32,000 nucleotides of DNA, from the NCBI RefSeq assembly GCF_051097895.1, contig NZ_CP142525.1:1920001-1952000 (forward strand), given 5' to 3'. The DNA is from Psychrobacter sp. HD31. GTDB taxonomy: Bacteria > Pseudomonadota > Gammaproteobacteria > Pseudomonadales > Moraxellaceae. The notes beneath the pieces were generated by a model. The model was not told the DNA's origin and ran no database searches. It was given only the letters and a program-made list of their open reading frames with translations. Position numbers and translations under genes: made by a program. Below, in pieces: positions 1,002-30,055 of the stretch (positions are counted from its first letter, which is position 1; each line of letters starts with the position of its first letter).

Positions 1002-1005
1002 AGGA

Positions 1006-1093
1006 GTAGGTCGGGTTAGCGTAACCCGACTACGCATAGAGTATCAAATTAAAATATATCGAGTTATGCTCGTTTTCTCACTTATATGACCTT
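1006..1093 (+). repeat. MITE/REP-like element, copy 1 (left hairpin module intact, right end degenerate)
   Basis: Starts GTAGGTCGGGTTAGCGTAACCCGAC, with a 9-bp stem GTCGGGTTA/TAACCCGAC. It then reads AAATTAAAATATATCGAGTTATGCTCGTTTTCTC, colinear with the copies at 1598 and 2182. It begins 4 bp after the upstream stop codon. Confidence 0.7.
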
Positions 1094-6753: not shown

Positions 6754-6905
6754 GCCATTTTGATAATGCAAAAGCATTAAGAATTGAGAAATAAACTGAT
6801 TCAAAGAAGAAAGAAAAATCAACAAAAAGTCATAAATATCGTTAGTGTTTCGATATTTTTTTGTTTAGAATGTTTTAACTAAGTTGTTTATTTTAAGGTT
6901 GATGG

Positions 6906-8378
6906 ATGTTTGGTTTTTATATGCCACCTATATTAAAAATGTTAAAAGGGTTTAAAGCCAAAACTCACTTGCATAAATTTTTGCAAAAAAGTACATTGTT
7001 ATTGGCACTGGGTATCACTACGACTGCTTTGCCAATGGCACCGGCGTATGCAAAAGTTACCTCGGCAGATTTCTCTGAGCTTGTAAGCCAAGTTACTCAG
7101 GGCGTGGCGAGGGTTAATGTCACTAAAAATGTAAGTGAAGAAGAGCTGGCTCAGGCACAAACGGCTGAATTACTAAAAAAGTTTTTTGGTGATCGAGTAA
7201 ACATACCAGATAGCCAAGTATCGCCTGTAGAAAAAGCTTTTGGTACGGCATTTTTTATTACCCAAGATGGTTACATGCTTACTAACAACCATGTGGTAGA
7301 AGGTGCCGACAGCATTACTGTCACTTTAAATGATCGCCGTGAACTAGATGCAACATTGGTAGGGAGTGATGAACGCTCTGACGTGGCCGTATTAAAAGTA
7401 ACAGGTAGCAGTTTTCCTGCATTGCCAGTTGGTGACTCTAGCCAGCTGAAAGTGGGTGAACCTGTTTTGGCAATCGGCTCACCTTTTGGTTTTGACTACT
7501 CGGCATCATCGGGTATTGTCAGTGCAACTTCGCGCAACTTTTCTCGCCAAACCAGTGTGCCATTTATTCAAACTGATGTTGCCATTAATCCTGGTAATTC
7601 TGGCGGTCCTTTGTTTAATCAAGAAGGCGAGGTCATTGGCATTAACTCGCGCATTTTTAGTGATACAGGCAGCTACTTGGGATTGTCATTTTCTATTCCT
7701 GTTAATGAGGCAATGGAAATCTATGAGCAGATTAAAACAGGTGGGAAGGTAGAGCGTGCTTATTTTGGCGCATTTCCGCAAGATATCGACCGTAATTTGG
7801 CAGAAGTTTATGGATTAGATAGACCCATTGGCGCCTTGCTCACACGTGTCACGCCAGACTCGCCTGCAAGTAAAGCAGGGTTAAAATCTGGAGATGTTAT
7901 TTTAAAATATAATGACACAGATATTTTAAGCTCTGACGATTTGGTTAATAAACTGTACCGAGCCAAACCAGGTGACCAATTTAAATTACTACTGCAAAGA
8001 AGTGGTAAGCAACGTATCGCAACAGGCAAGTTTGAACAAGTGCCAACAGGGGTGGAATCTTCTGCAACTGACAATTTTGAACACCCTCAAAAAATAAAGT
8101 TAGGCATCAATTTGCGAGAGCTTTTACCTACAGAAAAGTTAGAAATGCGTAACGCAGGTATTGATGGCGGTGTGTTAATTGTTGATGTTAACCCAACAGG
8201 GCGTGCTGCAAGGGCAGGATTGCAGGCGGGTGATTTGGTTACCAACTTGCACCAAAACCCCACCTTGAGCATTAATGATTTTGCAGCAGCAGTGCAAGGG
8301 CTACCCGAAACAGGGGTGGTGACGGTTGAAGTGATTCGTAGTCGTATCCCTGTCATTATAGGGTTACGTATTGACTAA
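6906..8378 (+). CDS. periplasmic serine endoprotease, DegP/DegQ/MucD (HtrA) family
   Basis: Signal peptide ending AYA|K. The trypsin-fold triad contexts are TNNHVV (His), DVAVLK (Asp) and GNSGGPL (Ser). Two PDZ-like segments are present (SPASKAGLKSGDVI and GRAARAGLQAGDLV). The exact start is uncertain (6906, 6921 or 6939). Confidence 0.9.
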   Translation: MFGFYMPPILKMLKGFKAKTHLHKFLQKSTLLLALGITTTALPMAPAYAKVTSADFSELVSQVTQGVARVNVTKNVSEEELAQAQTAELLKKFFGDRVNIPDSQVSPVEKAFGTAFFITQDGYMLTNNHVVEGADSITVTLNDRRELDATLVGSDERSDVAVLKVTGSSFPALPVGDSSQLKVGEPVLAIGSPFGFDYSASSGIVSATSRNFSRQTSVPFIQTDVAINPGNSGGPLFNQEGEVIGINSRIFSDTGSYLGLSFSIPVNEAMEIYEQIKTGGKVERAYFGAFPQDIDRNLAEVYGLDRPIGALLTRVTPDSPASKAGLKSGDVILKYNDTDILSSDDLVNKLYRAKPGDQFKLLLQRSGKQRIATGKFEQVPTGVESSATDNFEHPQKIKLGINLRELLPTEKLEMRNAGIDGGVLIVDVNPTGRAARAGLQAGDLVTNLHQNPTLSINDFAAAVQGLPETGVVTVEVIRSRIPVIIGLRID

Positions 8379-8437
8379 AAAACAAAGTTTTATCACCCAT
8401 ATTCGTGATATTTCCGTATGTGGGGTTATTTAAAATA

Positions 8438-8446
8438 TGCTAAAAT
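8438..8446 (+). promoter_or_regulatory. candidate extended -10 promoter element for dapA
   Basis: TGCTAAAAT (TGn + TAAAAT) lies 37 nt upstream of the dapA ATG. This rests on sequence pattern only. Confidence 0.3.
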
Positions 8447-8482
8447 GGCAGGCAAACAAAATAAAGTAAGTAAGGCGAATGT

Positions 8483-9388
8483 ATGACCAATTCATATGAT
8501 GAAATTAAAACCCAGCTTCAAGGCTCTATGGTAGCGTTGGTAACACCGATGAAACCCAATGGAGATGTTGACTATGATAAGTTGGGAGATCTTATTGATT
8601 GGCAAATAGAGCAAGGCACACATTGTTTGGTTGCGGTTGGCACAACGGGCGAGTCTGCTACATTGCCAGTGCAAGAACATGGCGATGTGATTCGCTTTTT
8701 CGTCAAACAAGTTAATGGTCGTGTGCCAGTTGTCGCCGGTACAGGTGCAAATAGTACTCAAGAGGCGATTGCACTAACTAAAATGGCACAAGAGTCTGGT
8801 GCAGACTGTGCATTGCTTGTGGCGCCTTATTACAACAAGCCAACACAAGAAGGCATTTATCAACATTACAAGGCAATTGCAGAGGCGGTGGATATCCCAC
8901 AGATGTTGTACAATGTACCAGGGCGTACTGTTGTAGATATTGCACAAGAAACAGTAGAACGACTGGCAGATATTGATAATATTGTTGCGATTAAAGATGC
9001 AACAGGCTCGCTTGAACGTGGCGCAAAATTAATTGAAGCTGTGGGTGACCGTATGGTGGTGTTATCTGGCGATGACCCAACTGCGTTAGAGCTAATGAAA
9101 GTTGGCGGTAAAGGCAATATTTCTGTTACGGCAAATGTTGCACCAAAAGTTATGAGCCAAGTGTTTGAATTGGCATTAAAAGGTGAGTTTGACCAAGCTG
9201 AAAAAATCCATGAGCAAGTTAAACATTTACATAAAGATTTATTTATTGAATCAAGCCCAAGCCCTACTAAATATGCCTTGTATAAAATGGGCAAAGTAGA
9301 TACGGGCATTCGCTTACCTTTGGTTTGGTTGTCCGAACAAAATCAACCAGTGATTGATGCTGCCATTAGTAAAGCTGGTTTGGTTTAA
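8483..9388 (+). CDS. dapA: 4-hydroxy-tetrahydrodipicolinate synthase
   Basis: 301-aa ORF with the DapA motifs GTTGES, YNVPGRT and the active-site lysine context AIKDATG. Confidence 0.95.
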   Translation: MTNSYDEIKTQLQGSMVALVTPMKPNGDVDYDKLGDLIDWQIEQGTHCLVAVGTTGESATLPVQEHGDVIRFFVKQVNGRVPVVAGTGANSTQEAIALTKMAQESGADCALLVAPYYNKPTQEGIYQHYKAIAEAVDIPQMLYNVPGRTVVDIAQETVERLADIDNIVAIKDATGSLERGAKLIEAVGDRMVVLSGDDPTALELMKVGGKGNISVTANVAPKVMSQVFELALKGEFDQAEKIHEQVKHLHKDLFIESSPSPTKYALYKMGKVDTGIRLPLVWLSEQNQPVIDAAISKAGLV

Positions 9389-15242: not shown

Positions 15243-16565
15243 TTACCAACCATCTCTTTGCTCAATAATTTGTGAAATACCATCTGGTTGGTTTTGTGGG
15301 GTTGGCATACTAGGCTGATAGCCGTGATTTAAAGGCGTAGTGTTTATAATCTGGTTATAAAACTTTTGCCCCGCACGTCCATTGGCTGGAAATATACCAT
15401 GCTGTTGCTGGTAGTCTTGAATAGCACCACGAGTGGCATCTCCAATAATGCCATCAACTGCACCAATATCATACCCAGCATCTAGCAATGCTTGTTGAAT
15501 TTCTCGTGCTTGTCGACGACCAATACCTGGATCATCCGTTGGCCAAGGTGTTTTGAAACCAATGTTAATGGCATCTTCTTTTTCTATTAAATGCGATAGT
15601 TGAGCAATACCAAGGGCATAGTTTTCTGATGCATTGTAAGAATAAAAAGTATCAAAGTTTTTACCAACTAAAAATGCTGGTCCCTTGCTACCTGCTGGCA
15701 ATAATAAGCCAGCTGAAGTTAAATTGTAGGGTAGTGGACTTCCGTCTGGCAATGTTAAACCTTGGTTACGCCAATGGCTTATTGGTTTTTTATTTCGGCG
15801 GTTGCTTGTTGCCCAATAACCTTCTGGTAGTTTTACCTCATAGCCCCAAGGCTCACCACTGCGATAACCCCGTTTGGCTAAAAAGTTAGCAGTTGATGCC
15901 AATGCGTCTGGCACACTATTAACTAAGTCTTTACGACCATCGCCATTAAAATCGACTGCAAGCTCTAAAAAGGTGCTTGGCATAAACTGTGTTTGCCCAA
16001 AAGCGCCAGCCCATGAGCCCGTCATATCATGTGCATAAATATCGCCATTTTGTACAATTTTTAATGCGTTGGCATACTCACCACGAAAGTAAGACTGACG
16101 GCGGTCAAAACAAGATAGTGTTGCTAATGAACTAAATAGGTCTTTTTTACCAAGTGTTTGCCCAAAGTTAGACTCAACTCCCCAAACGCCAAGTACATCC
16201 TCGGCTTTTACACCATAACGTGCTTCAATACGGCGCAAAGTATCCGCCCATTGGTATTTTGCTGCGATGCCATCTTGTACACGCTCTTCATCTACCAAGG
16301 CAGAAACATAATCCCAAACATCTTTTTGAAACTCGGGTTGATAGTTGAGTGACTGAATAACACTTGGGTCTGGCTTACTTGGGCGGTACTGCTCAAATGT
16401 GCTAGATGATACGCCTTTAAATTTGCTGGTAGACTTTAAATTGGTTAAACATTGTTGAAACTGAGAGTTTGAAAGATAAGGCGCTTCTGGCTTAGCGGCA
16501 TGTGCCAGTGTGCTGGCGGTAACCATAGCCAAAGTAGAAGAAGCAATAAGAGTGAAAAAACGCAT
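15243..16565 (-). CDS. lytic murein transglycosylase (MltB/Slt35-like) with C-terminal peptidoglycan-binding domain
   Basis: 440-aa ORF with a signal peptide and the catalytic-Glu context GVWGVESNFG. The C-terminal PG_binding_1-like repeat is LLDAGYDIGAVDGIIGDATRGAIQDYQ. Confidence 0.9.
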   Translation of the reverse strand: MRFFTLIASSTLAMVTASTLAHAAKPEAPYLSNSQFQQCLTNLKSTSKFKGVSSSTFEQYRPSKPDPSVIQSLNYQPEFQKDVWDYVSALVDEERVQDGIAAKYQWADTLRRIEARYGVKAEDVLGVWGVESNFGQTLGKKDLFSSLATLSCFDRRQSYFRGEYANALKIVQNGDIYAHDMTGSWAGAFGQTQFMPSTFLELAVDFNGDGRKDLVNSVPDALASTANFLAKRGYRSGEPWGYEVKLPEGYWATSNRRNKKPISHWRNQGLTLPDGSPLPYNLTSAGLLLPAGSKGPAFLVGKNFDTFYSYNASENYALGIAQLSHLIEKEDAINIGFKTPWPTDDPGIGRRQAREIQQALLDAGYDIGAVDGIIGDATRGAIQDYQQQHGIFPANGRAGQKFYNQIINTTPLNHGYQPSMPTPQNQPDGISQIIEQRDGW

Positions 16566-16662
16566 GGTAAGCCTTTAATTTTTATTAATTGTGTTTAATG
16601 CTACCTGAATGTTTATAAAAATTAAAGGCAAAAAGTGAGGCTGGTTACACAATCAAACATCT
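16555..16662 (+). repeat. 108-bp direct repeat, copy a (functional 5' end plus upstream region of the transglycosylase gene)
   Basis: Ungapped hand alignment to 17731-17838 gives 95 of 108 identical positions. The repeat covers the first 3-4 codons (minus-strand ATG at 16565-16563) and about 97 bp upstream. Confidence 0.85.
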
Positions 16663-16758
16663 TGGTATGGTTTGCTTGATTTGTAGAGGTTTTTAGAATT
16701 TTTAAATGTTAGCTGTTTTTATGGCGATGTTGGTTTGTATTTTGAATAAACTTTTTAT

Positions 16759-16820
16759 TTTGCATACAAAATACTTGCTTTTATTTGCGTGTTGGAATAA
16801 CATACTTTGCATACAAAATA
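16759..16820 (+). promoter_or_regulatory. candidate operator: 15-bp perfect direct repeat TTTGCATACAAAATA x2
   Basis: Exact copies lie at 16759-16773 and 16806-16820, 47 bp apart. The first sits within the inverted repeat TATTTTG-CATA-CAAAATA. A weaker third unit (TTTGCGTGTTGGAATA) lies between them. Confidence 0.35.
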
Positions 16821-17006
16821 GGTCGTATTATTCAACCATCAACTTAAAACATGAACTTAAAACAATAATCTGAATACTCAATAAAAAGACACTCATTTAA
16901 ATGCCACTCGTGGCAATATCAACATGGTACTCATTGTGAGTGTGTCATCGTTTATCTAGATTATTATAAAAGTGATAAGACAAATTAAAATATACGTTTG
17001 AAATTC

Positions 17007-17044
17007 CCTCTAACTCCTCCTTGAACAAGGGGGAGAATTTTTTT
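17007..17044 (+). repeat. small hairpin repeat (CCCTCTAACTC...CAAGGGGGAG) with T-run, terminator-like
   Basis: CCCTCTAACTCCTCCTTGAACAAGGGGGAG is followed by AATTTTTTT. It shares CCCTCTAACTC and CAAGGGGAG with 22163-22190. No plus-strand gene lies upstream for it to terminate. Confidence 0.5.
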
Positions 17045-17093
17045 GATATATTTTTTTGTTTACTTGCTAATGTTACAAACACAAGGAAATAAA

Positions 17094-17504
17094 ATGAAAC
17101 ACTTGATTAATAACACCATGAATGCAATCACACCTATGGCTATTATGGTGGGGCGTGCATTGCTAGGGCTGTATTTTGTGCTGCCTGGCATACTAAAGTT
17201 TGTGGCTTGGGATATGCATGTCGCACTGATGGAACAACATGGTATGGTATTTATTCCATTCTTTTTAGCATCAGCCGCAATTATTCAAATTATTGCAGGG
17301 TTAGGCATCATTTTTAATCGTTACACTGCTATTTTTTCATTGATTTTGGCAGGCTTGGTTATTGTTATCAACATAAACCTGCATGATTTTTGGAACGTGG
17401 CAACAGAGCAACAAAATTTTGTGAAAAACATGGCAATCTTTGCAGGTTTATTGGTGCTTGCTGGCTTTAGTTGGAAAGAAAAAAATAAAGCGTTATCTTC
17501 ATAA
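17094..17504 (+). CDS. DoxX family inner-membrane protein
   Basis: The ATG at 17094 follows AAGGAAA, while the track start at 17043 is a TTG. The protein is about 136 aa with four hydrophobic helices. Size and pattern (LLGLYFV.PG..KF) are typical of DoxX. Confidence 0.75.
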   Translation: MKHLINNTMNAITPMAIMVGRALLGLYFVLPGILKFVAWDMHVALMEQHGMVFIPFFLASAAIIQIIAGLGIIFNRYTAIFSLILAGLVIVININLHDFWNVATEQQNFVKNMAIFAGLLVLAGFSWKEKNKALSS

Positions 17505-17730
17505 AGTAATACAAAAGTTAGCGTAGCGTGGGTTACATTTTACTAAACGCACGCTACAGCTAGCTTTATATTTATTCTTTTATCATCTTAATCACATTGT
17601 CCAATTGTTCTGCACCTTCCTAGCCAAGCTACTTTGCCAAATTGAGTCTAAAATTTTATTTATCAAATGCATTAGTTCATTTATTTTTGTCAGCCGACAA
17701 ACCATCTGTACTATTAGCTTTTTCATGGTT

Positions 17731-17838
17731 AAAAAACGCATGGTAATCCTTTAGTTTTTATTCATTGGGATTACTGTTACTTGAATGGTTATAAAAATTA
17801 AAAGTAAAAAGTGAGGCTGGTTACATATTCAAACATCT
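17731..17838 (+). repeat. 108-bp direct repeat, copy b (relic 5' end plus upstream region of the transglycosylase gene)
   Basis: 88% identical to 16555-16662. It retains the minus-strand ATG CGT TTT (17741-17733) but then runs into unrelated sequence. This gives a 49-codon ORF at 17592..17741 (-), MRFLTMKKLIVQ..., with no transglycosylase homology. Confidence 0.85.
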
Positions 17839-18012
17839 GCTAAAAAAAGTGTGAGATGTGCTTTTTTATTAACCTTAACCCTAACCTTGAGTTTGACTAT
17901 GGTTATCTTAATGGTTGTGGTAGAGTAAACGAGACCTAAATAGCCAAATACTTTTATCTATTCAGTGGCATTTAAAAATCTAATAATCACAAAACGTGAC
18001 TAGGGAGAGGTG

Positions 18013-18666
18013 ATGAATATTATAGATGTTGCAAAAAATCGATACAGCACTAAATCTTATAACCCAAACAAAAAAATCTCGCCAGAAGACTTTGCCAAAA
18101 TTAAGGAGCTGATTCGGCTTAGCCCCTCTAGCTTAAACTTACAGCCTTGGCAGTTTATAATTGCCGATAACGAAGTCGCTAAAGAACGAGTGCTTAAAGG
18201 GTTCCCTGCTAGGTATGCCTTTAATGCAGAAAAAATAAAAGCGGCCTCGCATGTGGTGATTTACTGTGGTAAAACCAGCATTGATGATGCGCATGTTTGC
18301 AATATTGCGAATGCAGAAGAACAAGATGGTCGATTTAATTTGGCGGACGATAAAAGTCTTCGTCAGGGGCACATTCAGCGTTTTGTCGAGCACCACAGAA
18401 ATGAACTAAAGGACGAGCGTGAATGGAATACCAACCAGTTGTATTTAAACATTGGTATGGTGCTGCTTGGTGTGGCTGCAATGGGTATTGATGCCACCGC
18501 AATGGAAGGGGTAGACTGTGGCGCATTAAATAAAGAGTTTGATTTGGCAAAGCAAGGCTATCAAGCCGTGGCGGTAATGGCGTTTGGTTACCGAGCGGAT
18601 GATGACTTTAATGCCAAATTACCAAAATCACGTTTGCCAACCGAGCAAATTTTTGTCAATGCATAA
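18013..18666 (+). CDS. nfsB: oxygen-insensitive NAD(P)H nitroreductase (NfsB/NfnB family)
   Basis: Colinear with E. coli NfsB as I recall it: RYSTKSY, LSPSSLNLQPWQFI, DGRF, LPKSRLP. The ATG at 18013 follows GGGAGAGG. Confidence 0.85.
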   Translation: MNIIDVAKNRYSTKSYNPNKKISPEDFAKIKELIRLSPSSLNLQPWQFIIADNEVAKERVLKGFPARYAFNAEKIKAASHVVIYCGKTSIDDAHVCNIANAEEQDGRFNLADDKSLRQGHIQRFVEHHRNELKDEREWNTNQLYLNIGMVLLGVAAMGIDATAMEGVDCGALNKEFDLAKQGYQAVAVMAFGYRADDDFNAKLPKSRLPTEQIFVNA

Positions 18667-20083: not shown

Positions 20084-20313
20084 TTAATAATCCCAGTTAG
20101 TGAGCTTTTTTTAGCTTTATCAGGTGTTCATCATAAGTTTGAATATACACTAATCTAGACTTTATAAGATTTAAAAAAATATAGTTCTAAAGTTTGCTAA
20201 CTAAGTTTGTATTCTTTTATGTTAAATCTGTTTTCTATTTTTAAATAGGCAAGCATAGTTCTTATGCACTTTCTATGAGTCAAATAGACAATAAAGTGCA
20301 AAGCTAGCAAGAA

Positions 20314-20378
20314 AACTGTACTGAAAAAATAACCGCAACAGTTTATAAAAAATAGTCCTTAACTGTATCGGTACTGTT
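20314..20378. promoter_or_regulatory. candidate MocR operator / eamA promoter region (AACTGT repeats)
   Basis: AACTGTA occurs at 20314-20320 and 20361-20367. TACTGTT is at 20372-20378 and the inverted AACAGTT at 20337-20343. All lie 60-125 bp upstream of the EamA start. Confidence 0.3.
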
Positions 20379-20437
20379 TTAGTCTACCATGCTATTTTAG
20401 CTACTCAAAATATTCATATACGACTTGAGAAACTCCC

Positions 20438-21292
20438 ATGCCACTCAAACATACTCTTCTTGCCATTCTCGTCACCATTATTTGGGGCGTGAATTTTACC
20501 TTTATTAAATGGGGGCTTGAGAGTTTTGACCCCATCATGCTGACGGCAATGCGGTTTATTTTCACAGCAATACCGCTGATATTTTTTGTTAAACGACCTA
20601 AATTTAATCTGGTATTTATGACCTATGCGGTGGGTACATTTGCCATTCAATATGGATTGTTGTTTTATGCTATGCAACTGGGTGCGTCCGCAGGGTTGTC
20701 TGCATTGATATTGCAAATACAAGTGTTTATCACCTTATTTTTAGCGTATCTGTTATTAGGAGAAAGTATTAACCGCTGGCAGATAATTGGACTAATAATA
20801 GCGGTGCTTGGTCTTGGTTTGATTGGTATCAATGTTGGTGGAGATATGCCATTGCTCGGATTTATCTGTATCTTAATGTCAGCAACTGGCTGGAGCTTTG
20901 GTAACATTGCTTCAAAAAAATTAATGGGAAGTTCACCTCTGTCTTTAGTGGCCTGGGGTGGTCTGATTGTGGCGGTGTTGATGTCTATTCTGTCATGGTT
21001 CTTAGAGCCAAATACTTGGACAGTAAGCACATTTAGCGAGGCAAGCATCAAATCTTGGTTGTCTTTAAGCTTTATTGTGTATGTTTCAACGTTAATGGGA
21101 TTTGTGATGTGGACATTTTTACTACAAAACAACAGTGCTTCTAAAGTGATGCCATTTGCACTGCTTGTGCCTATTATTGGTATGTTTGCTTCGGTTGTTT
21201 TAACTGGTGAAACCATGACATGGTGGAAAGTAGTTGCCATGGTACTGATTATGTTGGGTTTGGGGGTAAGTAGGAAGCCTGTTACTGACTAA
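20438..21292 (+). CDS. EamA/RhaT (DMT superfamily) transporter
   Basis: 284 aa, about 10 predicted TM helices in two EamA-like halves. The gene is divergent from a MocR regulator, a commonly described pairing. Confidence 0.88.
   Translation: MPLKHTLLAILVTIIWGVNFTFIKWGLESFDPIMLTAMRFIFTAIPLIFFVKRPKFNLVFMTYAVGTFAIQYGLLFYAMQLGASAGLSALILQIQVFITLFLAYLLLGESINRWQIIGLIIAVLGLGLIGINVGGDMPLLGFICILMSATGWSFGNIASKKLMGSSPLSLVAWGGLIVAVLMSILSWFLEPNTWTVSTFSEASIKSWLSLSFIVYVSTLMGFVMWTFLLQNNSASKVMPFALLVPIIGMFASVVLTGETMTWWKVVAMVLIMLGLGVSRKPVTD
21155..21282 (+). repeat. 128-bp direct repeat, copy a (functional 3' end of the EamA gene)
   Basis: Ungapped hand alignment to 22857-22984 gives 115 of 128 identical positions. 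The first 34 bp are identical. Confidence 0.85.
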
Positions 21293-21303
21293 TTTTTATA
21301 CAG

Positions 21304-21483
21304 ATGGGAACACAATATCCGATTTTGCTGACCTTCATCAGTCCTATTCATCCACGCTCATACCATGCTCATGTGGATAAATTGGGTCTACAAGTGATTA
21401 AAAACTTTACCTTTAATGATAATAACTATTATGAGCTGGGGTATGATACGAGTGTGTCTATTTTTCAGTTAGGCATAAAATAA
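21304..21483 (+). CDS. 59-codon ORF immediately upstream of the DUF711 gene (uncertain; possibly a gene fragment)
   Basis: ATG at 21304, TAA at 21481-21483, so it falls below the 60-aa cut-off of the ORF track. It translates to MGTQYPILLTFISPIHPRSYHAHVDKLGLQVIKNFTFNDNNYYELGYDTSVSIFQLGIK. There is no convincing SD. Its stop abuts the DUF711 SD (AAGGAA). Confidence 0.25.
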   Translation: MGTQYPILLTFISPIHPRSYHAHVDKLGLQVIKNFTFNDNNYYELGYDTSVSIFQLGIK

Positions 21484-21494
21484 GGAATAGAGTA

Positions 21495-22826
21495 ATGAAC
21501 AATATTATCAATGCAGAAAGCTATAAAAATCAGAAACTATGCCGAGTGCGAGCCGTTACTGCCTTTATCACCTTACCGAAAGACAGTAACCTTTGGTACG
21601 ATATTCTAGCCGAAGGAAAACGCCAATGTGATACCCTTGCTATCGCCTTACAACAAGCAGGTTATCATGTGCAAAGCCTACGCCTTGTGACCAATCCATT
21701 TGGAGAGTACCTCAACACAAGCGACATTAACACTGCTAAAAAAAGTTTGGCACAGATTACCCAACATCTTGACGAACTGAACAAAAATAATGAGTTGCGT
21801 ATCCGTTTTGCAATTGGCGAGGCATGTACCGCTCATGAGATTGCCTTACTACCCGAGCTTATCAAAGATTATGGCGATTTGTGTAATGCTTGTGTCAACG
21901 TGCCGATGAATGAGCATGGGTTTTTACAACATGAGTTGATTGAGCAGTCGGTGCAAGCTATCCAACAGATTGCGGATATCACGCCCAATGGCGAGGGCAA
22001 TTTTAACTTTACCGTCAATTTTAATTGCGATAGCTATATTCCCTATTTTCCTGCCAGTTATCATCGCCCAAAACAAGCAAACGACAAGGCTAATGTAGAT
22101 AAGGCAGTCGTGGTGGGCTTAGAAACGCCTGATTTATTGGTTGATGTGTTGCAGTCAGTATCCCCTCTAACTCTCCCTTATCAAGGGGAGGTCTGTGAAA
22201 ACCAAACATCTAACAACGTTGATAACTGTGCTGATAACCACGCTGAATTTATGCAACAGGCATACACCGCTATGCACACAGCCTTGCAATATCATGTGGA
22301 TAAAGTGGTTGGCGTGATTGACAATACCTCTCTTGAGCAAGGCTGGCAGTTTATTGGCATGGATACCTCCGCCGCACCGTCCAAGGATTGTGCTAGTATG
22401 GTTGAGGTGTATCAACTGCTGGGTGTACCCTATTTTGGGGCAAGTGGTACGGTTGAAGCTTCGGCATTATTAACCAAGGTGTTTAAGTCGGTAAACAATG
22501 TTCAGCAGGTTGGTTTTTCTGGGTTGATGTTGGCGGTTACCGAGGATACAGGACTTGCCAAAGCGACAATCAATCAGCAGTTTGACATCAAAGACTTGCT
22601 GACTTATAGCAGTGTCTGTGGCATTGGATTAGATACGGTGCCGATTGAGGGCGACACCCCAAGTGAAAAAATCTGTGCCATCATTCGAGACACTGGCACC
22701 ATGGCGTTTAGGCTTAATAAACCGCTAACGGTACGACTGTTTCCTGTACCGAAGCTAACCGCAGGCGAGATGACCAGCTTTGACAGTGATGATTTGTGTA
22801 ATTGTGCTGTGTTGGTGGTACCTTAG
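21495..22826 (+). CDS. DUF711 / UPF0210 family protein (PF05167-like), function unknown
   Basis: 443 aa. The C-terminal half (FSGLMLAVTEDTGL...SSVCGIGLDTVPIEGDTPSEKICAIIRDTGTMAF..NKPLTVRLFPVP) is colinear with UPF0210 proteins of Firmicutes as I recall them (LSGAFIPVSEDEGM...CSVGLDMIAIPEDTP...). AAGGAA SD upstream. Confidence 0.8.
   Translation: MNNIINAESYKNQKLCRVRAVTAFITLPKDSNLWYDILAEGKRQCDTLAIALQQAGYHVQSLRLVTNPFGEYLNTSDINTAKKSLAQITQHLDELNKNNELRIRFAIGEACTAHEIALLPELIKDYGDLCNACVNVPMNEHGFLQHELIEQSVQAIQQIADITPNGEGNFNFTVNFNCDSYIPYFPASYHRPKQANDKANVDKAVVVGLETPDLLVDVLQSVSPLTLPYQGEVCENQTSNNVDNCADNHAEFMQQAYTAMHTALQYHVDKVVGVIDNTSLEQGWQFIGMDTSAAPSKDCASMVEVYQLLGVPYFGASGTVEASALLTKVFKSVNNVQQVGFSGLMLAVTEDTGLAKATINQQFDIKDLLTYSSVCGIGLDTVPIEGDTPSEKICAIIRDTGTMAFRLNKPLTVRLFPVPKLTAGEMTSFDSDDLCNCAVLVVP
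22163..22190 (+). repeat. intragenic copy of the small hairpin repeat (CCCTCTAACTC...CAAGGGGAG)
   Basis: CCCTCTAACTCTCCCTTATCAAGGGGAG lies inside the DUF711 CDS and encodes ..SPLTLPYQGEV... It shares an 11-mer plus the stem arm with 17007-17035. Confidence 0.45.
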
Positions 22827-22856
22827 CCTTAATGGGAGGTAATTCTCAAGCCTTTT

Positions 22857-22994
22857 TTTGCACTGCTTGTGCCTATTATTGGTATGTTTGTTTCGATTGT
22901 TTTAACTGGCAAAGCCATAACATGGTAGAAGGTAGTTGCCATGGTTCTGATCATGTTGGGTTTAGTGGTGAGTAGGAAGCCTGTAAAGATATAA
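22857..22994 (+). pseudogene. relic 3' end of the EamA transporter gene (128-bp repeat copy b plus its own stop)
   Basis: In the EamA frame it reads FALLVPIIGMFVSIVLTGKAITW*KVVAMVLIMLGLVVSRKPVKI*. The live gene reads FALLVPIIGMFASVVLTGETMTWWKVVAMVLIMLGLGVSRKPVTD*. There is an internal TAG at 22926-22928 and no upstream coding continuation. Confidence 0.85.
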
Positions 22995-25347: not shown

Positions 25348-25428
25348 GGCTATCCTCAAAAAAGCGTCAGTCAGAATTTGTGTAAAATTTCAGCTAGTTT
25401 ATCAGAAATTGCTTTGATAAAGAAAAAT

Positions 25429-25461
25429 AAAAAGACGGCTTACCAATAGCAGCCGTCTTTT
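25429..25461 (-). terminator. rho-independent terminator after the DASS transporter gene
   Basis: Stem AGACGGCT (25433-25440) pairs with AGCCGTCT (25451-25458). On the minus strand it is followed by CTTTTTATTTTT. Confidence 0.65.
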
Positions 25462-25497
25462 AAAATGAGTTAGTAAAGTTTTATGGTTCAAAGGGAG

Positions 25498-26958
25498 TTA
25501 ATAATGACCCAAAAACTTCCACCAAACGAGACCAGCGCTAATCCATACGACTAGGTTAACAACGCTCATGATAAAACCAACACGCCACCATTCACCCAGT
25601 GATGCATACCCTGAGTTAAATATTACAGGCGCAGTGCCGGTTGCATAATGGGTTAGGGTCATCATAATATTGCCAGCTGCTGCCATAATCAATGCAAATA
25701 ACATTGGCGGTGCGCCAAGGCTTAAACCAACGGTATAAAATGCAGCAAACATGGCGGTGATGTGTGCGGTGGTACTGGCAAAAAAGTAATGCACATACAT
25801 ATACACCAAGGTCAAAATAACCATTGCCATGGTTGTGCTAACACCCGTAGCAGCAATAGCTGCCTGAATATTGCCAGAAAACCACTCAATAAGCCCAAGT
25901 TTATTTAAAAAGCCTGCCATCATAATTAATGCAGAAAACCAAACGATGGTATCCCATGCAGAACGTTCTTTAAGAATGTCTTCCCAACTTAGAACACCTG
26001 TAATAAGTAAAGCAGATAAGCCGATTAATGCGGTGGTTGCAGAGTGCAATTTTAAAGCACTAATGCCTGTTAACATCTCTGGAATGTTTGCCCAAAAAAG
26101 CAACATTAAGGTAAAAATTGCCAGCATGATTTTTTCATTTTTAGAGATTCGCCCCATTTTTTTTAGATTATTGGTAGCAAAGGTTTTTGCATCTGGGGTT
26201 TCTTTAATTTCTGGTTTTGCCAGCAGATAGATAACCAAAGGCATTAGTAAAATACATAGCATACCTGGGATAAACATGGAGACAGCCCATGTTGTCCAAG
26301 ACAGTTGGATTTCACTACCTGTTGCTTTATTGATTAAATCTACAACCAACGGGTTAGGTGCGGTTGCGGTAATAAACATCCCAGAAGTGATGGGGTTTGA
26401 ATGATAATTAACCAAAGCGAGGTATTTACCAATTTTGCTTTGTGTGCCATTTTCTGGTGTTGAGTCAAAGTTATGGGCAATTGACTTCATAATTGGGTGG
26501 ATGATACCACCACCACGTGCGGTGTTTGATGGCGTAATTGGTGCAATCATTAACTCAGAGATGGCAAGTGAGTACCCAATCCCCAAGCTTTTTTTGCCAA
26601 ATAGTGCAATAAAATAATAGGCAATGCGGTTACCTAATCCAGTTTTTATCAAACCACGAGAAATCATGATGGCAATACCAATTAACCAAATCAAAGGACT
26701 CGAAAAGCTAGAAAGTACGTCGGTTATGGCACCTTTTGGGCTGTCGTTAGTGACACCAGTCACAGCAACTAAAGTCATAGCGATGATGGCAATTGCCCCA
26801 ATTGGTAAAGCTTTGCCAATAATGGCCGCAATGGTGGCAATAAAGATGGCAAGCAGATGCCATGCATTTGGGTCAACGCCCACAGGTACAGGGATAATAA
26901 ACCAAATGAGTAAACCGATAATCATGGATATAATTGTTGGGATAAGCTTAAACGGCAT
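25498..26958 (-). CDS. DASS/SLC13-type anion (di/tricarboxylate) transporter
   Basis: 486 aa and highly hydrophobic, with more than 12 TM segments. Two-repeat architecture with the hairpin-type motifs PSNTARGG and HYATGTAP, typical of the CitT/2-oxoglutarate-malate translocator-like anion permeases. A perfect AGGAGG SD lies upstream. Confidence 0.82.
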   Translation of the reverse strand: MPFKLIPTIISMIIGLLIWFIIPVPVGVDPNAWHLLAIFIATIAAIIGKALPIGAIAIIAMTLVAVTGVTNDSPKGAITDVLSSFSSPLIWLIGIAIMISRGLIKTGLGNRIAYYFIALFGKKSLGIGYSLAISELMIAPITPSNTARGGGIIHPIMKSIAHNFDSTPENGTQSKIGKYLALVNYHSNPITSGMFITATAPNPLVVDLINKATGSEIQLSWTTWAVSMFIPGMLCILLMPLVIYLLAKPEIKETPDAKTFATNNLKKMGRISKNEKIMLAIFTLMLLFWANIPEMLTGISALKLHSATTALIGLSALLITGVLSWEDILKERSAWDTIVWFSALIMMAGFLNKLGLIEWFSGNIQAAIAATGVSTTMAMVILTLVYMYVHYFFASTTAHITAMFAAFYTVGLSLGAPPMLFALIMAAAGNIMMTLTHYATGTAPVIFNSGYASLGEWWRVGFIMSVVNLVVWISAGLVWWKFLGHY

Positions 26959-27355
26959 ATTAACCTCCTATTTATTAATATTGAGTGTTATTGATAGGGT
27001 AATAGTTGTAAGTATCTGGTTAAGGGTTAAATAGTATTAATATCAGCTGAGTTATTATTTTGGCTGGTTAATTAGTTGACGATTAATAAGATACCTAAGC
27101 TATCTTTGCTATATTTTTGTTATCTTTTTTGGTTTTTAATGATTTTTATTTTTGGTTTTATTATAGAACTGTGGCAGGGATAGTCAACTGTTAAAAGTAC
27201 AATGAGACGGGAAAAATTATACAATTGTTTAACAAGGACAATGTGAGGTGTTTTGTATTTATTTTAGCTGTTTTGTCAACAGCCAATGTGATGGCACTGC
27301 TTATGAACAGACCATCAACAAAGGCAATGTAATACAAAGGGCAACTAATTTATGG

Positions 27356-30055
27356 TTAGTCCGTATCTAACGCATCAATTAAAGCAGATTTTAGCAACTG
27401 TAATTTGTCATTGCTTAATTCCATATCATTTTTATCACTAATATAAAAAGTGTCTTCTGCCTTTTCTCCAAGCGTAGTAATACGGGCAGAATGGACTTCA
27501 ATACCTTGCTCTAAAAAGATTTGACCAACTTGGGCTAACAAGCTTGGTCTATCAAGTGTGATTAGGCTCATCATATGTTGGTTTTGTAAGGCGTTTTCAT
27601 CAAAACGAACTTTGGTTGGTACGCTAAAGTTTTTTAACCTTCTTGGTATTCTTTTTTGGCTAAATTTTGGTTTGGTTGGGCTTTTAAACGCGGTTATGAG
27701 TCGGTTTTTAAGTTCATCTTGGCGTTCTGGGTCTGTTAGGAGCGTACCTTGGCGGTCTAAAATGATATAGGAATCCAAGGCAAAATCACGTGTACCAGTA
27801 ATGATGCGTGCATCTAAAACATCAAAATCCATTTGGTCAAAAACCGCCATAGTAACTGCAAATAGGTTTTCTTGGTCTTGTGTATAAACAAAAACCTGTA
27901 CGGCATCTAATGCAATGTCTCTGTGCTCACGTAATGAAACGAGTGGTTCACTGTCTTTATCGGATGCTTTACCAATTGGTGGGTGGTTAAGGATTTCTTG
28001 AGTATGCCATAAAATATCTTCAGGGATTTCTCGCAAAAAGTATTCATCGCCCAGCTCATCCCAAAGGGTGATGACTTCTTGCTGATTCATTTTAGAATTT
28101 TGTTTTATCATCAACTGAGTGGCTTTTTCTCGGTTGACTGTAATCATGTCGTCACGGTTTGTTGGGGTGTCGATGTCGGCTTTTAGCATACGGCGAGTGT
28201 AGGTATAAAGCTGTTTCATCAAGCTGGCTCGCCAACTGTTCCAAATTTGTGAGTTGGTGGCATTCATGTCGGCAACGGTAAGCACATAAAGGTGGTTTAA
28301 GTGGGTCACATTGCCAATAATCTCGGCAAATTCACTCACCACCTCTGGGTCTGAGATGTCTTTTTTCTGTGCCGTGCTGGACATTAACAAATGTTGACGA
28401 GTTAACCAGCCCACAAGGTTTGCATCTGCTTCATTCATGCCATGATGTAAGCAAAACTCAATGGCTTCAACTTCGCCCAGTTTACTGTGGTCGCCGCCTC
28501 TACCTTTGGCAATATCGTGGAAAATAGCTGCCAATACTAAAATATCTTTACGGTCAATACGTTGGTATATGCTATTAACTAAGTCATAATCGCTTTGATA
28601 TTTGTCATCGGTAAATCGATGCAATATCCTAACCACAAACAAGGTGTGGGCATCAACGGTATAACGATGAAACAAATCAAATTGCATGAGTCCTGTAACA
28701 CGCCCAAACTCTGGTATGTAATGACCCAGTACGCCATAGCGTTTCATGGTGCGTAGTCGGTGATACAAATAGTTTTGTTCTTTAATATTGTCTAAAAAAA
28801 GTTGTTTGTTTTTTGGGTTATCTCGGTAGGCTTGCCCAATACCACGAGCCGCAATTTTTAATGCACGTAAGGTACGGGTACGTACGTTTTTAATACCATG
28901 TTGCCCCATCAGTAAAAACATTTGTAATATGGCATCTGGGTGTTGTGCAAAAACACGGTGATGCGCAATGGCAATTTGATTACCAATTTGGTTAAATAAA
29001 GCGTTTAGTGGCATTTTTTTAGGTTTTTTATCGTCACTCAAGTTGGGCTCTATCACCAGCTCATAGTAGTGTGCGGTCAGCATTTCTGATAACGTCGAGA
29101 TGTGCATTGCACAGCGATAGTAATCGCGCATAAAGTTTTCGATAGCAGCATTACCATGAGAGTCATGAATTTCTGGCGTGTCTTCATATCCCATTAACTT
29201 GGCGATTTCGCGTTGATAGTCAAACAAGAGTTTGTTTTCATTACGACCATTTAAAGTATGTAAATGATGGCGGATTGTCCATAAAAAGTCTTCAGACTGT
29301 TGCAGCTCATCAAACTCTCTTTCTGTTAAAAAGTCTTGTTGTACTAAATCATATAGTTTGCTTACTCTAAAATAGCGTTTACTTACCCAGCCAATAACAT
29401 GGATGTCTCTGAGCCCACCAGGTGCATTTTTAATGTCTGGTTCTAGGTTATACTCGGTAGAGTTATTTTGTAGATAGCGTTGTTTGGCTTCTGCCATTTT
29501 GGCATTATAAAAATCAACTTGTGACCACGTTTTTTCTAGGATATTTTTAGGGGCAAATTTTAGGGCTTCATTACCAACCAAATAACGTGCTTCTAAGATG
29601 GTTGAGGCAATGGTGTGATCGCCTTTAGTTACCTGGATAGACTCTTCAATCGTTCGTACGGCAAGGGCTGGTTCAATCCCGATGTCCCAAAGTTTGGCAA
29701 CAAACTGATTGAGTTGCTCGCCTACTTTTTCATCAATGGTGCCTGGTGATAAAAGTAAAATATCAACATCAGAGTGTAGCGATAACTCACCACGTCCATA
29801 ACCACCGGTGGCAAATAACGTTAGGTCGGTTTCATCAAGTTGATAAAGATTAAATAGTGCAATGAGTAACTCATCAATGGCGGTGGCTCTTGCTGTAACC
29901 AGTTGGCGGATACTGATGCCTTTACTTAGTGCGTGGTCAATTTCTTGGTTAACCTGTGTTAACCATGCGGGCACACCTAAATTTGCTTGAGTTTGTTGGC
30001 TTAAATCTGGCAGTGGTGTGATTTGTAAGGTGTTTACTGTGTAGTTATTAAACAT
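27356..30055 (-). CDS. glnD: bifunctional [protein-PII] uridylyltransferase / uridylyl-removing enzyme
   Basis: 899 aa. It has the nucleotidyltransferase motif GGYGRGELSLHSDVDILLL, the HD domain (IFHDIAKGRGGDHS) and two C-terminal ACT-like segments. Confidence 0.95.
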   Translation of the reverse strand: MFNNYTVNTLQITPLPDLSQQTQANLGVPAWLTQVNQEIDHALSKGISIRQLVTARATAIDELLIALFNLYQLDETDLTLFATGGYGRGELSLHSDVDILLLSPGTIDEKVGEQLNQFVAKLWDIGIEPALAVRTIEESIQVTKGDHTIASTILEARYLVGNEALKFAPKNILEKTWSQVDFYNAKMAEAKQRYLQNNSTEYNLEPDIKNAPGGLRDIHVIGWVSKRYFRVSKLYDLVQQDFLTEREFDELQQSEDFLWTIRHHLHTLNGRNENKLLFDYQREIAKLMGYEDTPEIHDSHGNAAIENFMRDYYRCAMHISTLSEMLTAHYYELVIEPNLSDDKKPKKMPLNALFNQIGNQIAIAHHRVFAQHPDAILQMFLLMGQHGIKNVRTRTLRALKIAARGIGQAYRDNPKNKQLFLDNIKEQNYLYHRLRTMKRYGVLGHYIPEFGRVTGLMQFDLFHRYTVDAHTLFVVRILHRFTDDKYQSDYDLVNSIYQRIDRKDILVLAAIFHDIAKGRGGDHSKLGEVEAIEFCLHHGMNEADANLVGWLTRQHLLMSSTAQKKDISDPEVVSEFAEIIGNVTHLNHLYVLTVADMNATNSQIWNSWRASLMKQLYTYTRRMLKADIDTPTNRDDMITVNREKATQLMIKQNSKMNQQEVITLWDELGDEYFLREIPEDILWHTQEILNHPPIGKASDKDSEPLVSLREHRDIALDAVQVFVYTQDQENLFAVTMAVFDQMDFDVLDARIITGTRDFALDSYIILDRQGTLLTDPERQDELKNRLITAFKSPTKPKFSQKRIPRRLKNFSVPTKVRFDENALQNQHMMSLITLDRPSLLAQVGQIFLEQGIEVHSARITTLGEKAEDTFYISDKNDMELSNDKLQLLKSALIDALDTD

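What the first reader, a model, noticed from the sequence alone, without database searches (positions are those of the whole stretch)
16555..17838. DoxX gene carried on a 1.07-kb insert at the 5' end of the lytic transglycosylase gene, bracketed by a 108-bp imperfect direct repeat of its start and upstream region
Segment 16555-16662 recurs at 17731-17838. It covers the first 3-4 codons of the transglycosylase (minus-strand ATG at 16565) plus about 97 bp upstream. The hand alignment is ungapped with 95 of 108 identical positions. The 16 bp at the gene-proximal edge, AAAAAACGCATGGTAA, are identical. The distal copy keeps ATG CGT TTT but then continues into unrelated sequence, giving a 49-codon ORF at 17592..17741 (-) with no enzyme behind it. 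It is therefore an orphaned promoter and start region. The 1068 bp between the copies carry doxX, a 15-bp direct-repeat operator candidate and a hairpin repeat. The interrupted gene stays functional because one repeat copy supplies a complete 5' end.
Basis: partly seen in the sequence, partly recalled or inferred. Interest (0 to 1): 0.68.

Follow-up and report, generated by a model that had tools for sequence, protein, structure and literature searches.

The report
Recombination scar around an acquired doxX gene
A Psychrobacter-like bacterium gained a small membrane-protein gene (doxX) between two existing genes in an event that copied about 110 bp of the neighbouring gene's promoter and start; it is a real but fairly ordinary scar of gene acquisition, notable mainly because a second scar of the same kind lies 3.3 kb away.

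Summary
The repeat is real.

The closest relative found (MAG contig L088, also L089) is syntenic over about 20 kb. It has mltB and nfsB divergent across 264 bp, one copy of R and no doxX. R1 keeps the ancestral mltB flank and R2 keeps the ancestral nfsB flank. Three strains of the window's species carry the full R1-insert-R2 structure.

The 1068-bp insert is a fragment of a nitroreductase-osmC-doxX type operon and still holds a 73-nt relic of the osmC 3' end. doxX appears to be under purifying selection. The 49-codon ORF is not conserved. R2 carries eight clustered substitutions in the inferred promoter core (-10 TAGCAT to TAACAG).

No transposase, terminal inverted repeats or integrase are present. 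The architecture is that of an insertion-duplication. How it formed is inferred, most likely by a single crossover with DNA carrying a copy of R.

A second insert of the same kind (128-bp repeat around a DUF711 gene) lies at 21155-22984. Interest is moderate.

The parts
15243..16565 (-). mltB-family lytic murein transglycosylase gene. It is intact, and its first 11 nt lie inside R1.
   Evidence: Pfam SLT_2 E 3e-98 plus PG_binding_1. It is 71-78% identical to the orthologue in 80 Psychrobacter species, with conserved downstream synteny, and 98% identical in another strain.
16552..16662 (-). R1: the working copy of the mltB control region plus codons 1-4. The inferred -10 hexamer TAGCAT is at 16598-16603 read on the minus strand. 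It also contains an 18-nt-arm inverted repeat at 16571-16588 / 16612-16629.
   Evidence: Contiguous with the mltB body as in L088. The central 41 nt match L088 except at one site. The CATTCAGGTAGCAT motif is shared with L085/L086, and L087 has AATCAGGTAGCAT with a TTGACA placed 16 nt upstream of TAGCAT. The hairpin folds at -14.0 kcal/mol, against -6.6 in L088.
16663..17730 (+). U: the 1068-bp unique inserted segment, absent from L088/L089. GC is 33%, against 40-44% for the neighbouring genes.
   Evidence: No terminal inverted repeats, no transposase or integrase ORF, and no match in plasmids.
16756..16820 (+). Two palindromes, TATTTTGCATACAAAATA (16756-16773) and TACTTTGCATACAAAATA (16803-16820), 47 nt apart. 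They are candidate operator sites carried in with the insert; no function was tested.
   Evidence: Among all 140 loci they occur only in loci of this species.
16895..16967 (+). Relic of the last 20 or so codons and stop region of an osmC-family gene.
   Evidence: 75% nt identity over 73 nt to the 3' end of the osmC gene that precedes the closest doxX homologue in L091. The peptide remnant is NATRGNI.
17014..17035 (+). GC-rich hairpin followed by a run of seven T (terminator-like), upstream of doxX. It lies in a stretch of about 90 nt that the osmC-doxX spacer of L091 lacks.
   Evidence: -13.5 kcal/mol.
17094..17504 (+). doxX gene (136 aa). The start is set by homologues and by the AAGGAA Shine-Dalgarno sequence.
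   Evidence: Pfam DoxX. Versus the window, strain L081 has 4 synonymous and 0 non-synonymous codon changes, and L090 has 4 synonymous and 2 non-synonymous. The closest homologues, at 70-78%, are scattered and sit in other contexts.
17514..17567 (.). Strong hairpin after doxX, a likely two-way terminator that isolates doxX from R2 and from nfsB.
   Evidence: Folds at -28.0 kcal/mol on the + strand with a T-rich tail, and at -23.7 on the - strand.
17592..17741 (-). 49-codon ORF that starts at the duplicated mltB ATG. It is a chance reading frame, not a conserved gene.
   Evidence: Stop at codon 33 in L081 and L090, and a 16-nt indel in L081. No Pfam hit.
17728..17838 (-). R2: the relic copy of the mltB control region plus codons 1-4. 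It remains contiguous with the ancestral nfsB upstream sequence.
   Evidence: Its right flank matches L088. Eight R2-specific substitutions all fall in 17763-17803 and change TAGCAT to TAACAG. Such clustering has P of about 0.004-0.005.
17839..18666 (+). Ancestral nfsB upstream region (17839-18012) and the oxygen-insensitive nitroreductase gene (18013-18666).
   Evidence: Pfam Nitroreductase. Orthologous to L088 8175-8997.
21155..22984 (+). Second insertion-duplication. A 128-nt direct repeat (21155-21282, the 3' end of the EamA gene, and 22857-22984; 90% identical) brackets a DUF711 gene (21495..22826).
   Evidence: L088 has one copy and no DUF711. The relic copy carries a TGG to TAG stop.

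Best explanation
This is the scar of a lineage-specific gene gain by insertion-duplication.

The ancestor had mltB and nfsB arranged divergently across about 265 bp, as L088 still does. A 1068-bp fragment of a (nitroreductase-)osmC-doxX type operon entered that spacer. The same event duplicated the roughly 108-bp segment running from codon 4 of mltB to the distal edge of its conserved control region.

The copy next to the mltB body (R1) keeps the gene whole and keeps the promoter core. The copy next to nfsB (R2) is a relic whose promoter core has been mutated. The little ORF it heads is noise. doxX is maintained by selection and is insulated by a strong terminator.

Shown here: the empty site, the flank continuity, the relic content of the insert, and the constraint on doxX.

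Inferred, with about 0.4 of my belief about how it formed: DNA carrying a copy of R joined to the insert, as a circle or a concatemer, recombined with the chromosomal R by one reciprocal RecA-type crossover. This is the natural counterpart of laboratory insertion-duplication mutagenesis, and it duplicates the homology by construction. The distribution of differences fits one crossover between 16627 and 16650 between two R alleles about 9% apart, followed by two or three later changes in R1 that strengthen its hairpin. Decay of both copies in place, each keeping what its neighbour needs, fits about as well.
For: - Repeat is real and two-copy.
- Empty site in the nearest relative, with a single R whose two flanks match R1-left and R2-right. 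Intergenic length is 264 nt against 97+174 nt in the window.
- Three strains at 97-99.7% identity carry the repeat: L081 and L090 hold R1, the insert and R2, and L082 holds R1 and most of the insert before its contig ends.
- A more distant relative has mocR running directly into mltB, and 80 Psychrobacter species have neither doxX nor nfsB here.
- The insert holds an osmC 3' relic, as in L091 (osmC-doxX). Its GC is lower than its surroundings.
- No terminal inverted repeats, transposase or integrase.
- doxX changes between strains are mostly synonymous.
- The ORF is broken in other strains.
- R is about 90% conserved between the species while other spacers are 50-70%.
- R2 changes are clustered in the promoter core.
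- A second insert with the same architecture lies 3.3 kb away. There, 14 sites are shared by both copies against L088, which places the duplication inside this lineage.
- Single-crossover integration is known to duplicate the cloned homology (PMC11658436). A Psychrobacter isolate has been reported as naturally transformable (PMC3364145).
Against: - No donor locus or circular form was found, so the step that first joined R to the insert is unexplained.
- R1 differs from R2 (13 sites) more than it differs from L088 (9 sites). On a strict clock this would place the duplication near or before the species split.
- Two R1-specific sites (16571, 16578) do not fit the simple crossover pattern.
- The promoter assignment (-10 TAGCAT) rests on conservation only. 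The consensus scan did not call it.
- Only one close empty-site lineage is available (L088, L089 and L123 are the same population).
Confidence: 0.8

Rival explanations
1. The R1-insert-R2 state is ancestral to the window species and L088, and L088 lost doxX by recombination between the two repeats (pop-out). On this reading the 'empty site' is secondary.
For: Direct repeats can mediate such deletions. The L088 copy resembles R1 in the centre and R2 at the distal end, as a crossover product would. The R1-R2 distance exceeds the R1-L088 distance.
Against: It needs a gain plus a loss instead of one gain. L085 and 80 Psychrobacter species lack doxX here. The leftmost informative sites of L088 match R2, not R1. 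The leftmost 32 nt of R2 would have stayed 97% identical to a paralogous functional copy over a time in which neutral spacers fell to 50-70%. In the sister case at 21155-22984, the 14 shared sites against 3 on the functional-copy branch place the duplication after the split.
Confidence: 0.1
2. The same insertion-duplication formed by a route other than a single homologous crossover. One option is homology-facilitated illegitimate recombination of a linear transforming fragment anchored in mltB-R, with its far end joined illegitimately 108 nt back inside the anchor. The other is a replication template switch that copied the insert from elsewhere and returned 108 nt behind the departure point.
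For: Homology-facilitated illegitimate recombination is documented in transformable Acinetobacter, Pseudomonas stutzeri and Streptococcus (PMC6382021). Short shared strings (ATGGT) lie near all three junctions. No circular donor is known.
Against: From my own knowledge, an illegitimate joint is expected beyond the anchor and gives deletions; a joint inside the paired anchor is awkward. Junction microhomology is at most 2 nt at the actual breakpoints. Two independent events both gave 108-128-bp duplications, which suits a minimum homology length better than random joints. No second copy of the insert is seen in the data held.
Confidence: 0.3
3. R1 and R2 are attL/attR of a decayed integrative element whose attachment site mimicked the 5' end of mltB, so that integration restored the gene. 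The integrase was later lost.
For: Elements that integrate into gene ends carry a copy of that end and leave direct repeats. The gene is reconstituted exactly as such elements do (my own knowledge).
Against: The insert is 1068 bp with no recombinase remnant. Its content is an operon fragment. All neighbouring genes are syntenic with L088. The second insert duplicates a different target, the EamA 3' end, and also has no recombinase.
Confidence: 0.04
4. R is a dispersed mobile or REP-like repeat, or R2 is the head of a second, truncated mltB paralogue.
For: REP-like elements do exist in this window (1003-1092, 1597-1690, 2178-2235).
Against: There are only two copies in 32 kb, and one at the orthologous place in L088. 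A 17-mer scan of metagenomes returned only the L088 contig as a true match. There is no homology beyond codon 4.
Confidence: 0.02

Closest known systems
Insertion-duplication by single-crossover (Campbell-type) integration, as used for mutagenesis in Neisseria and Streptococcus (PMC11658436)
   Same: Heterologous DNA is flanked by two direct copies of one chromosomal segment. When that segment includes the promoter and start of a gene, the gene stays intact next to one copy, and the other copy heads a truncated stub.
   Different: This is a natural event, with no vector, marker or replicon in the insert. The homology is only about 108 bp. The source of a circular or concatemeric donor is unknown. 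The copies are now 13% apart.
[quoted passage not shown] 2002, as cited in PMC6382021)
   Same: Transposase-free gain of foreign DNA next to a homologous anchor in a transformable gamma-proteobacterial group.
   Different: That process typically deletes recipient DNA at the illegitimate joint. Here recipient DNA is duplicated, and no clear microhomology is seen at the joints.
attL/attR repeats of integrative elements that restore the target gene end
   Same: Direct repeats copy a gene end and the gene is reconstituted.
   Different: There is no recombinase, no element-like gene content, and the insert is 1.07 kb.
Transposon or IS target-site duplication
   Same: A direct duplication of target sequence flanks an insert.
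   Different: Known target duplications are about 2-14 bp (my own knowledge). Here the duplication is 108-128 bp, with no terminal inverted repeats and no transposase.
Complementary degeneration of duplicated regulatory DNA (duplication-degeneration-complementation idea)
   Same: After duplication of a shared divergent control region, R1 keeps the mltB promoter core and changes at its distal end. R2 keeps the distal, nfsB-side part and loses the core.
   Different: Only 13 sites are informative, no expression data exist, and a recombination mosaic explains the pattern about as well.

Membership tests
Insertion-duplication (single-crossover integration product) | The two flanking direct repeats are copies of one contiguous chromosomal segment that is single-copy in the uninserted state | tested here: met
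   L088 8070-8174 matches both R1 and R2. Flanks continue into mltB on one side and nfsB on the other.
Insertion-duplication (single-crossover integration product) | Each repeat keeps one ancestral flank and one novel junction with the insert | tested here: met
   R1-left and R2-right are ancestral. The junctions 16662/16663 and 17730/17731 are novel.
Insertion-duplication (single-crossover integration product) | A circular or concatemeric donor carrying the insert plus one copy of the homology | not testable with these tools
   No donor was found.
Transposon / IS / MITE insertion | Terminal inverted repeats, a short target duplication, and a transposase (or derivation from an element that has one) | tested here: not met
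   No inverted repeat at the insert ends. The duplication is 108-111 bp. The only Pfam hit among the two ORFs of the insert that were scanned (doxX and the 49-codon ORF) is DoxX.
Integrase-mediated integrative element | A tyrosine or serine recombinase gene in or beside the insert | tested here: not met
   Apart from doxX, the ORFs in 16663-17730 are all shorter than 60 aa and none resembles a recombinase in size; neighbouring genes are syntenic with L088.
Homology-facilitated illegitimate recombination product | One homologous anchor plus an illegitimate joint at a 3-10 bp microhomology | tested here: inconclusive
   At most 2 nt (GT) are shared at the insert/R2 joint. The donor sequence is unknown, so the other joint cannot be judged.
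DoxX family (Pfam PF07681) | Profile match above the curated cutoff | tested here: met
   31.3 bits against a cutoff of 23.6, residues 17-97. 377 homologues carry the same domain.
MltB-type lytic transglycosylase (Pfam SLT_2 + PG_binding_1) | Full-length SLT_2 domain match, and an intact reading frame from the R1 ATG | tested here: met
   SLT_2 profile positions 1-291 of 292, E 3e-98. The gene encodes 440 aa.

The most novel reading that the evidence does not exclude
This lineage has a recurrent, transposase-free way of adding single genes. Small DNA units made of one gene plus about 110-130 bp copied from the end of a resident gene integrate by one crossover. This leaves paired 'gene-end' repeats whose later divergence locks the gene in. 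Two such scars lie within 5.5 kb here, against two candidates in about 1.3 Mb of other Psychrobacter loci, which hints at a characteristic homology length and a local hotspot beside mltB.
Probability: 0.2. Interest if true: 0.6.

Novelty: new member of a known kind. Interest (0 to 1): 0.36.

Why it matters
The locus gives a clean, datable natural example of how a transformable bacterium can add a single gene without any mobile-element machinery and without harming the gene it lands in. The uninserted state is preserved in a sister lineage. The pair of scars offers a concrete, testable substrate (a 1176-bp and a 1702-bp unit) for asking whether small homology-bearing circles or concatemers are a real route of gene gain. 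It also shows what happens to a duplicated divergent promoter afterwards. For annotation, it warns that the 49-codon ORF and the second 'promoter' are relics.

Tried and rejected
- **Exact-protein look-ups.** Look-ups of the window's MltB and its 136-aa DoxX found nothing. The 144-aa DoxX call did find strains.
- **Promoter motifs in distant species.** The mltB-upstream motifs of this clade are not conserved upstream of mltB in the 80 more distant Psychrobacter species, so these could not serve as outgroups for R.
- **Hidden homology after codon 4.** I searched the relic ORF against mltB of the window and of L085-L087 and found only chance 14-35-nt matches.
- **Metagenome scan.** A scan with a conserved 17-mer of R gave 47 hits, but only one was a true homologue, and it was the L088 contig again.
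- **RNA families.** Rfam at a permissive threshold gave nothing credible in 16300-18100.
- **Plasmid origin.** The insert has no nucleotide match in plasmids. DoxX reaches at most 58% and DUF711 at most 25% identity on plasmids.
- **Source of the insert's outer parts.** Segments 16663-16894 and 17505-17730 have no homologue in any locus held. The DNA downstream of doxX in L140 is unrelated.
- **ACT-domain gene relic in the second insert.** I tested for one upstream of DUF711 and found no Pfam hit.
- **Single-event models.** I tried to derive both scars from one event (block insertion, tandem duplication of the nfsB-mocR-EamA block, or integration of a 6-kb circle). None reproduces the observed order of junctions, so I treat them as two events.
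- **Literature.** The de Vries and Wackernagel 2002 paper is not held in the library.
Full report
**1. The observation**

Window 16555-16662 and 17731-17838 align without gaps at 95/108. The repeat finder extends this to 16552-16662 vs 17728-17838, 97/111 or 87%. blastn of one copy against the 32-kb window finds the other at E 7e-36 and nothing else above noise.

R1 contains the ATG and first 11 nt of a 440-aa SLT_2 + PG_binding_1 lytic transglycosylase gene (15243..16565, minus strand) plus 97 nt upstream. R2 has the same ATGCGTTTTTT, after which similarity ends. Local alignment of the following 240 nt against mltB of the window and of three relatives gives only chance matches.

The 1068 bp between the copies carry a DoxX gene (17094..17504).

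**2. Whose genome, and which relatives are informative**

MltB is 71-78% identical to the orthologue in 80 Psychrobacter species. The downstream order mltB - small lipoprotein - murI - ETF:quinone oxidoreductase is kept in essentially all of them. None has doxX, nfsB, mocR or EamA within 8 kb upstream. The window therefore comes from a Psychrobacter-like member of the Moraxellaceae, and the 5' side of mltB is a synteny break. In other species that side holds quite different genes, including an ATPase + HNH pair and a DNA methylase.

Closer relatives exist only in SRA-derived assemblies and one MAG:

- **Same species.** L081, L082 and L090 are 97.4-99.7% identical. L081 and L090 carry R1, the insert and R2; L082 ends before R2.
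- **Nearest sister.** L088 (GCA_002747095.1, contig PDSV01000038.1) and L089 are syntenic with window 10.7-31.5 kb at 80-88% nt identity.
- **More distant.** L085/L086/L087 have MltB at 82-85%. In L085, mocR runs directly into mltB across 208 nt, with neither nfsB nor doxX.

**3. The empty site**

In L088, mltB (6757..8079, minus) and nfsB (8344..8997, plus) are divergent across 264 nt.

One stretch, L088 8070-8174, aligns to both window 16556-16660 and window 17732-17836. To its left L088 continues into mltB, as R1 does. To its right it continues into the nfsB upstream region, as R2 does.

The lengths add up: 97 nt of non-coding R plus 174 nt (17839-18012) gives 271, against 264 in L088.

Relative to the sister lineage, the window has gained 1176 bp, made of one extra R plus 1068 bp of new DNA (U, 16663-17730).

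The order of events suggested by the three states is:
1. mocR-mltB (as in L085).
2. nfsB gained between them (as in L088).
3. doxX gained with duplication of R (the window species).

**4. What the insert is**

From left to right, U contains:

| Coordinates | Content |
|---|---|
| 16663-16894 | 232 nt of unknown origin, with two palindromes TA(T/C)TTTGCATACAAAATA 47 nt apart |
| 16895-16967 | 73-nt relic of the 3' end of an osmC-family gene, 75% identical to the end of the osmC gene just before the closest doxX homologue (L091, which reads nitroreductase-osmC-doxX) |
| 17014-17035 | Terminator-like hairpin with a run of seven T |
| 17094-17504 | doxX |
| 17514-17567 | Very stable hairpin with T-rich tails (-28 kcal/mol) |
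| about 17568-17730 | About 160 nt without any homologue |

Another close homologue (L140) has nitroreductase directly followed by doxX. U is therefore a piece cut from a detoxification-type operon, not a mobile element.

It has no terminal inverted repeats and no transposase or recombinase ORF. It has no counterpart on plasmids. Its GC is 33% (doxX 37.5%), against 42-44% for its neighbours.

DoxX homologues above 60% are few and scattered: unnamed SRA contigs, Phocoenobacter, Shewanella. This fits a patchy accessory gene.

**5. State of the parts today**

- **doxX.** Relative to the window, L081 has 4 synonymous and 0 non-synonymous codon changes. L090 has 4 synonymous and 2 non-synonymous. 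The numbers are small but point to purifying selection.
- **The 49-codon ORF.** It is not maintained. L081 and L090 both have a stop at codon 33, and L081 also has a 16-nt indel.
- **R as a whole.** It is about 90% identical between the window and L088. Other intergenic DNA in the same comparison is 50-70% identical. R is therefore functional control DNA.
- **The promoter.** In L085-L087 the same region contains TTGACA or TTGCAT, 16 nt of spacer, then TAGCAT. I take TAGCAT (window 16598-16603, minus strand) as the mltB -10 element. This is an inference from conservation; the simple consensus scan did not call it.

**6. Polarising the 13 R1/R2 differences with L088**

Five differences are specific to R1: 16571, 16578, 16629, 16650 and 16652. 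Eight are specific to R2, and all of these lie in 17763-17803, the promoter core. They turn TAGCAT into TAACAG.

A contiguous block like this has a probability of about 0.004-0.005 under random placement.

Three of the R1-specific changes (16571, 16578, 16629) lengthen and tighten the 18-nt-arm inverted repeat in R1. It folds at -14.0 kcal/mol, against -6.6 in L088. Site 16629 is still polymorphic among strains.

Two readings fit this pattern:
- **(a) Decay in place.** R1 keeps what mltB needs. R2 keeps the nfsB-side part and loses, or is selected to lose, a second mltB promoter.
- **(b) A recombination mosaic.** One crossover between 16627 and 16650 between two R alleles about 9% apart gives R1 = recipient-left + donor-right and R2 = donor-left + recipient-right. 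This accounts for 10 of the 12 fixed sites.

I cannot separate the two with the data held.

**7. How it formed**

What is shown is the architecture: heterologous DNA between two direct copies of one chromosomal segment, with each copy keeping one ancestral flank.

This is the product expected from single-crossover integration of DNA that carries the homology once. The laboratory version is known as insertion-duplication mutagenesis (PMC11658436). When the homology includes a gene's promoter and start, the gene survives, as it does here.

Alternatives are:
- homology-facilitated illegitimate recombination of a linear fragment (PMC6382021);
- a replication template switch.

Both are possible. 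However, the breakpoints share at most 2 nt, and from my own knowledge illegitimate joints usually delete recipient DNA rather than duplicate it.

Natural transformation has been reported for a Psychrobacter isolate (PMC3364145).

The step that first joined R to U is not explained by any model I could test.

**8. A second case in the same window**

Comparing the rest of the window with L088 exposed a second case.

- A 128-nt direct repeat, 21155-21282 (the 3' end of the EamA gene 20438..21292) and 22857-22984, is 90% identical with 1702-nt spacing. It brackets a DUF711 gene (21495..22826; Pfam E 8e-82).
- L088 has a single copy and no DUF711.
- The copy attached to the EamA body has new last codons (...KPVTD* instead of ...KPVKI*).
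- The other copy keeps the ancestral end and downstream flank. It is decaying, with a TGG to TAG stop and its own changes spread over all codon positions.
- Fourteen sites are shared by both copies against L088, while the functional copy has only three changes of its own. The duplication therefore arose in this lineage well after the split.
- The relic branches are similar in the two cases: 8 changes in 108 nt here and 8 unambiguous relic-specific changes (10 counting two sites where all three sequences differ) in 128 nt there.

A third single-gene difference, a Na/sulfate symporter gene within window 25348-27362, has no flanking repeat.

Self-comparison of about 1.3 Mb of other Psychrobacter loci found only two comparable repeat pairs. 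Two within 5.5 kb is therefore unusual.

I could not derive both scars from one event.

**9. Comparison with what is known, and verdict**

The structure matches insertion-duplication in every feature that could be tested. It fails the tests for a transposon or IS and for an integrase-borne element. The test for homology-facilitated illegitimate recombination is inconclusive.

The genes themselves (DoxX, MltB-type transglycosylase, NfsB-type nitroreductase) are ordinary family members.

- the distal copy is probably a dead promoter;
- its ORF is noise;
- the insert is an operon fragment;
- nfsB is an earlier gain.

It is a tidy natural example of a known kind of recombination product, not a new kind of system. 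The recurrence nearby is the most interesting lead. Interest is 0.36.

Noticed in passing
window 21155-22984: Second insertion-duplication. A 128-nt direct repeat of the EamA gene's 3' end (90% identical, 1702-nt spacing) brackets a DUF711 gene that L088 lacks. The relic copy has an in-frame stop, and the working copy has two new last codons.
   Followed up: yes
window 25348-27362: A Na/sulfate symporter (DASS) gene (25498..26958) lies between the aminotransferase and glnD genes. It is absent from L088, where the two genes are 88 nt apart, and no flanking direct repeat was found.
   Followed up: partly
window 20084-20476 vs L088 10487-11770: L088 has an extra 313-aa EamA gene between mocR and the 284-aa EamA gene. 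The window has only 393 nt there.
   Followed up: no
window 1003-1092, 1597-1690, 2178-2235: Three copies of a REP-like intergenic element. It has a GTAGGTCGGGTTAGCG...TAACCCGAC palindrome followed by CGAGTTATGCTCG, and the copies surround two small ORFs with no Pfam match.
   Followed up: partly
window 16571-16588 / 16612-16629: An inverted repeat with 18-nt arms spans the inferred mltB promoter and the Shine-Dalgarno sequence. R1 has gained a G-C pair and an A-T pair relative to L088 (-14.0 vs -6.6 kcal/mol). Site 16629 is polymorphic among strains. The function is unknown.
   Followed up: partly
window 16645-16662 and 17821-17838; L085 1396-1412; L086 1-17; L087 64-81: The motif ATGTTTGA(T/A)T(A/G)TGTAA marks the distal edge of the conserved mltB control region in all clade members, whatever gene lies upstream. 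The Logan contig L086 begins exactly at it.
   Followed up: no
L091 2-1328; L140 1-1062: The closest DoxX homologues sit in nitroreductase-(osmC)-doxX operons. In the window, doxX has landed beside an unrelated nitroreductase, only 29-39% identical to those partners.
   Followed up: partly
L001, L010, L063 upstream of mltB (about 4.6-7.7 kb in each locus): In other Psychrobacter species the 5' flank of mltB holds an AAA-ATPase + HNH-like pair, or a DNA methylase with a companion gene. This suggests a variable, defence-island-like hotspot.
   Followed up: no
window 17623 (L081) and 17870-17881 (L090): Strain-level indels. L081 has a 16-nt insertion inside the relic ORF. L090 has a 12-nt deletion in a TAACC(T/C) run upstream of nfsB.
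   Followed up: no
L076 12384-12491 and 15614-15721; L079 846-964 and 2107-2225: These are the only other direct-repeat pairs of about 110 nt with kb-scale spacing among the 80 Psychrobacter loci. They may be further scars of the same kind.
   Followed up: no
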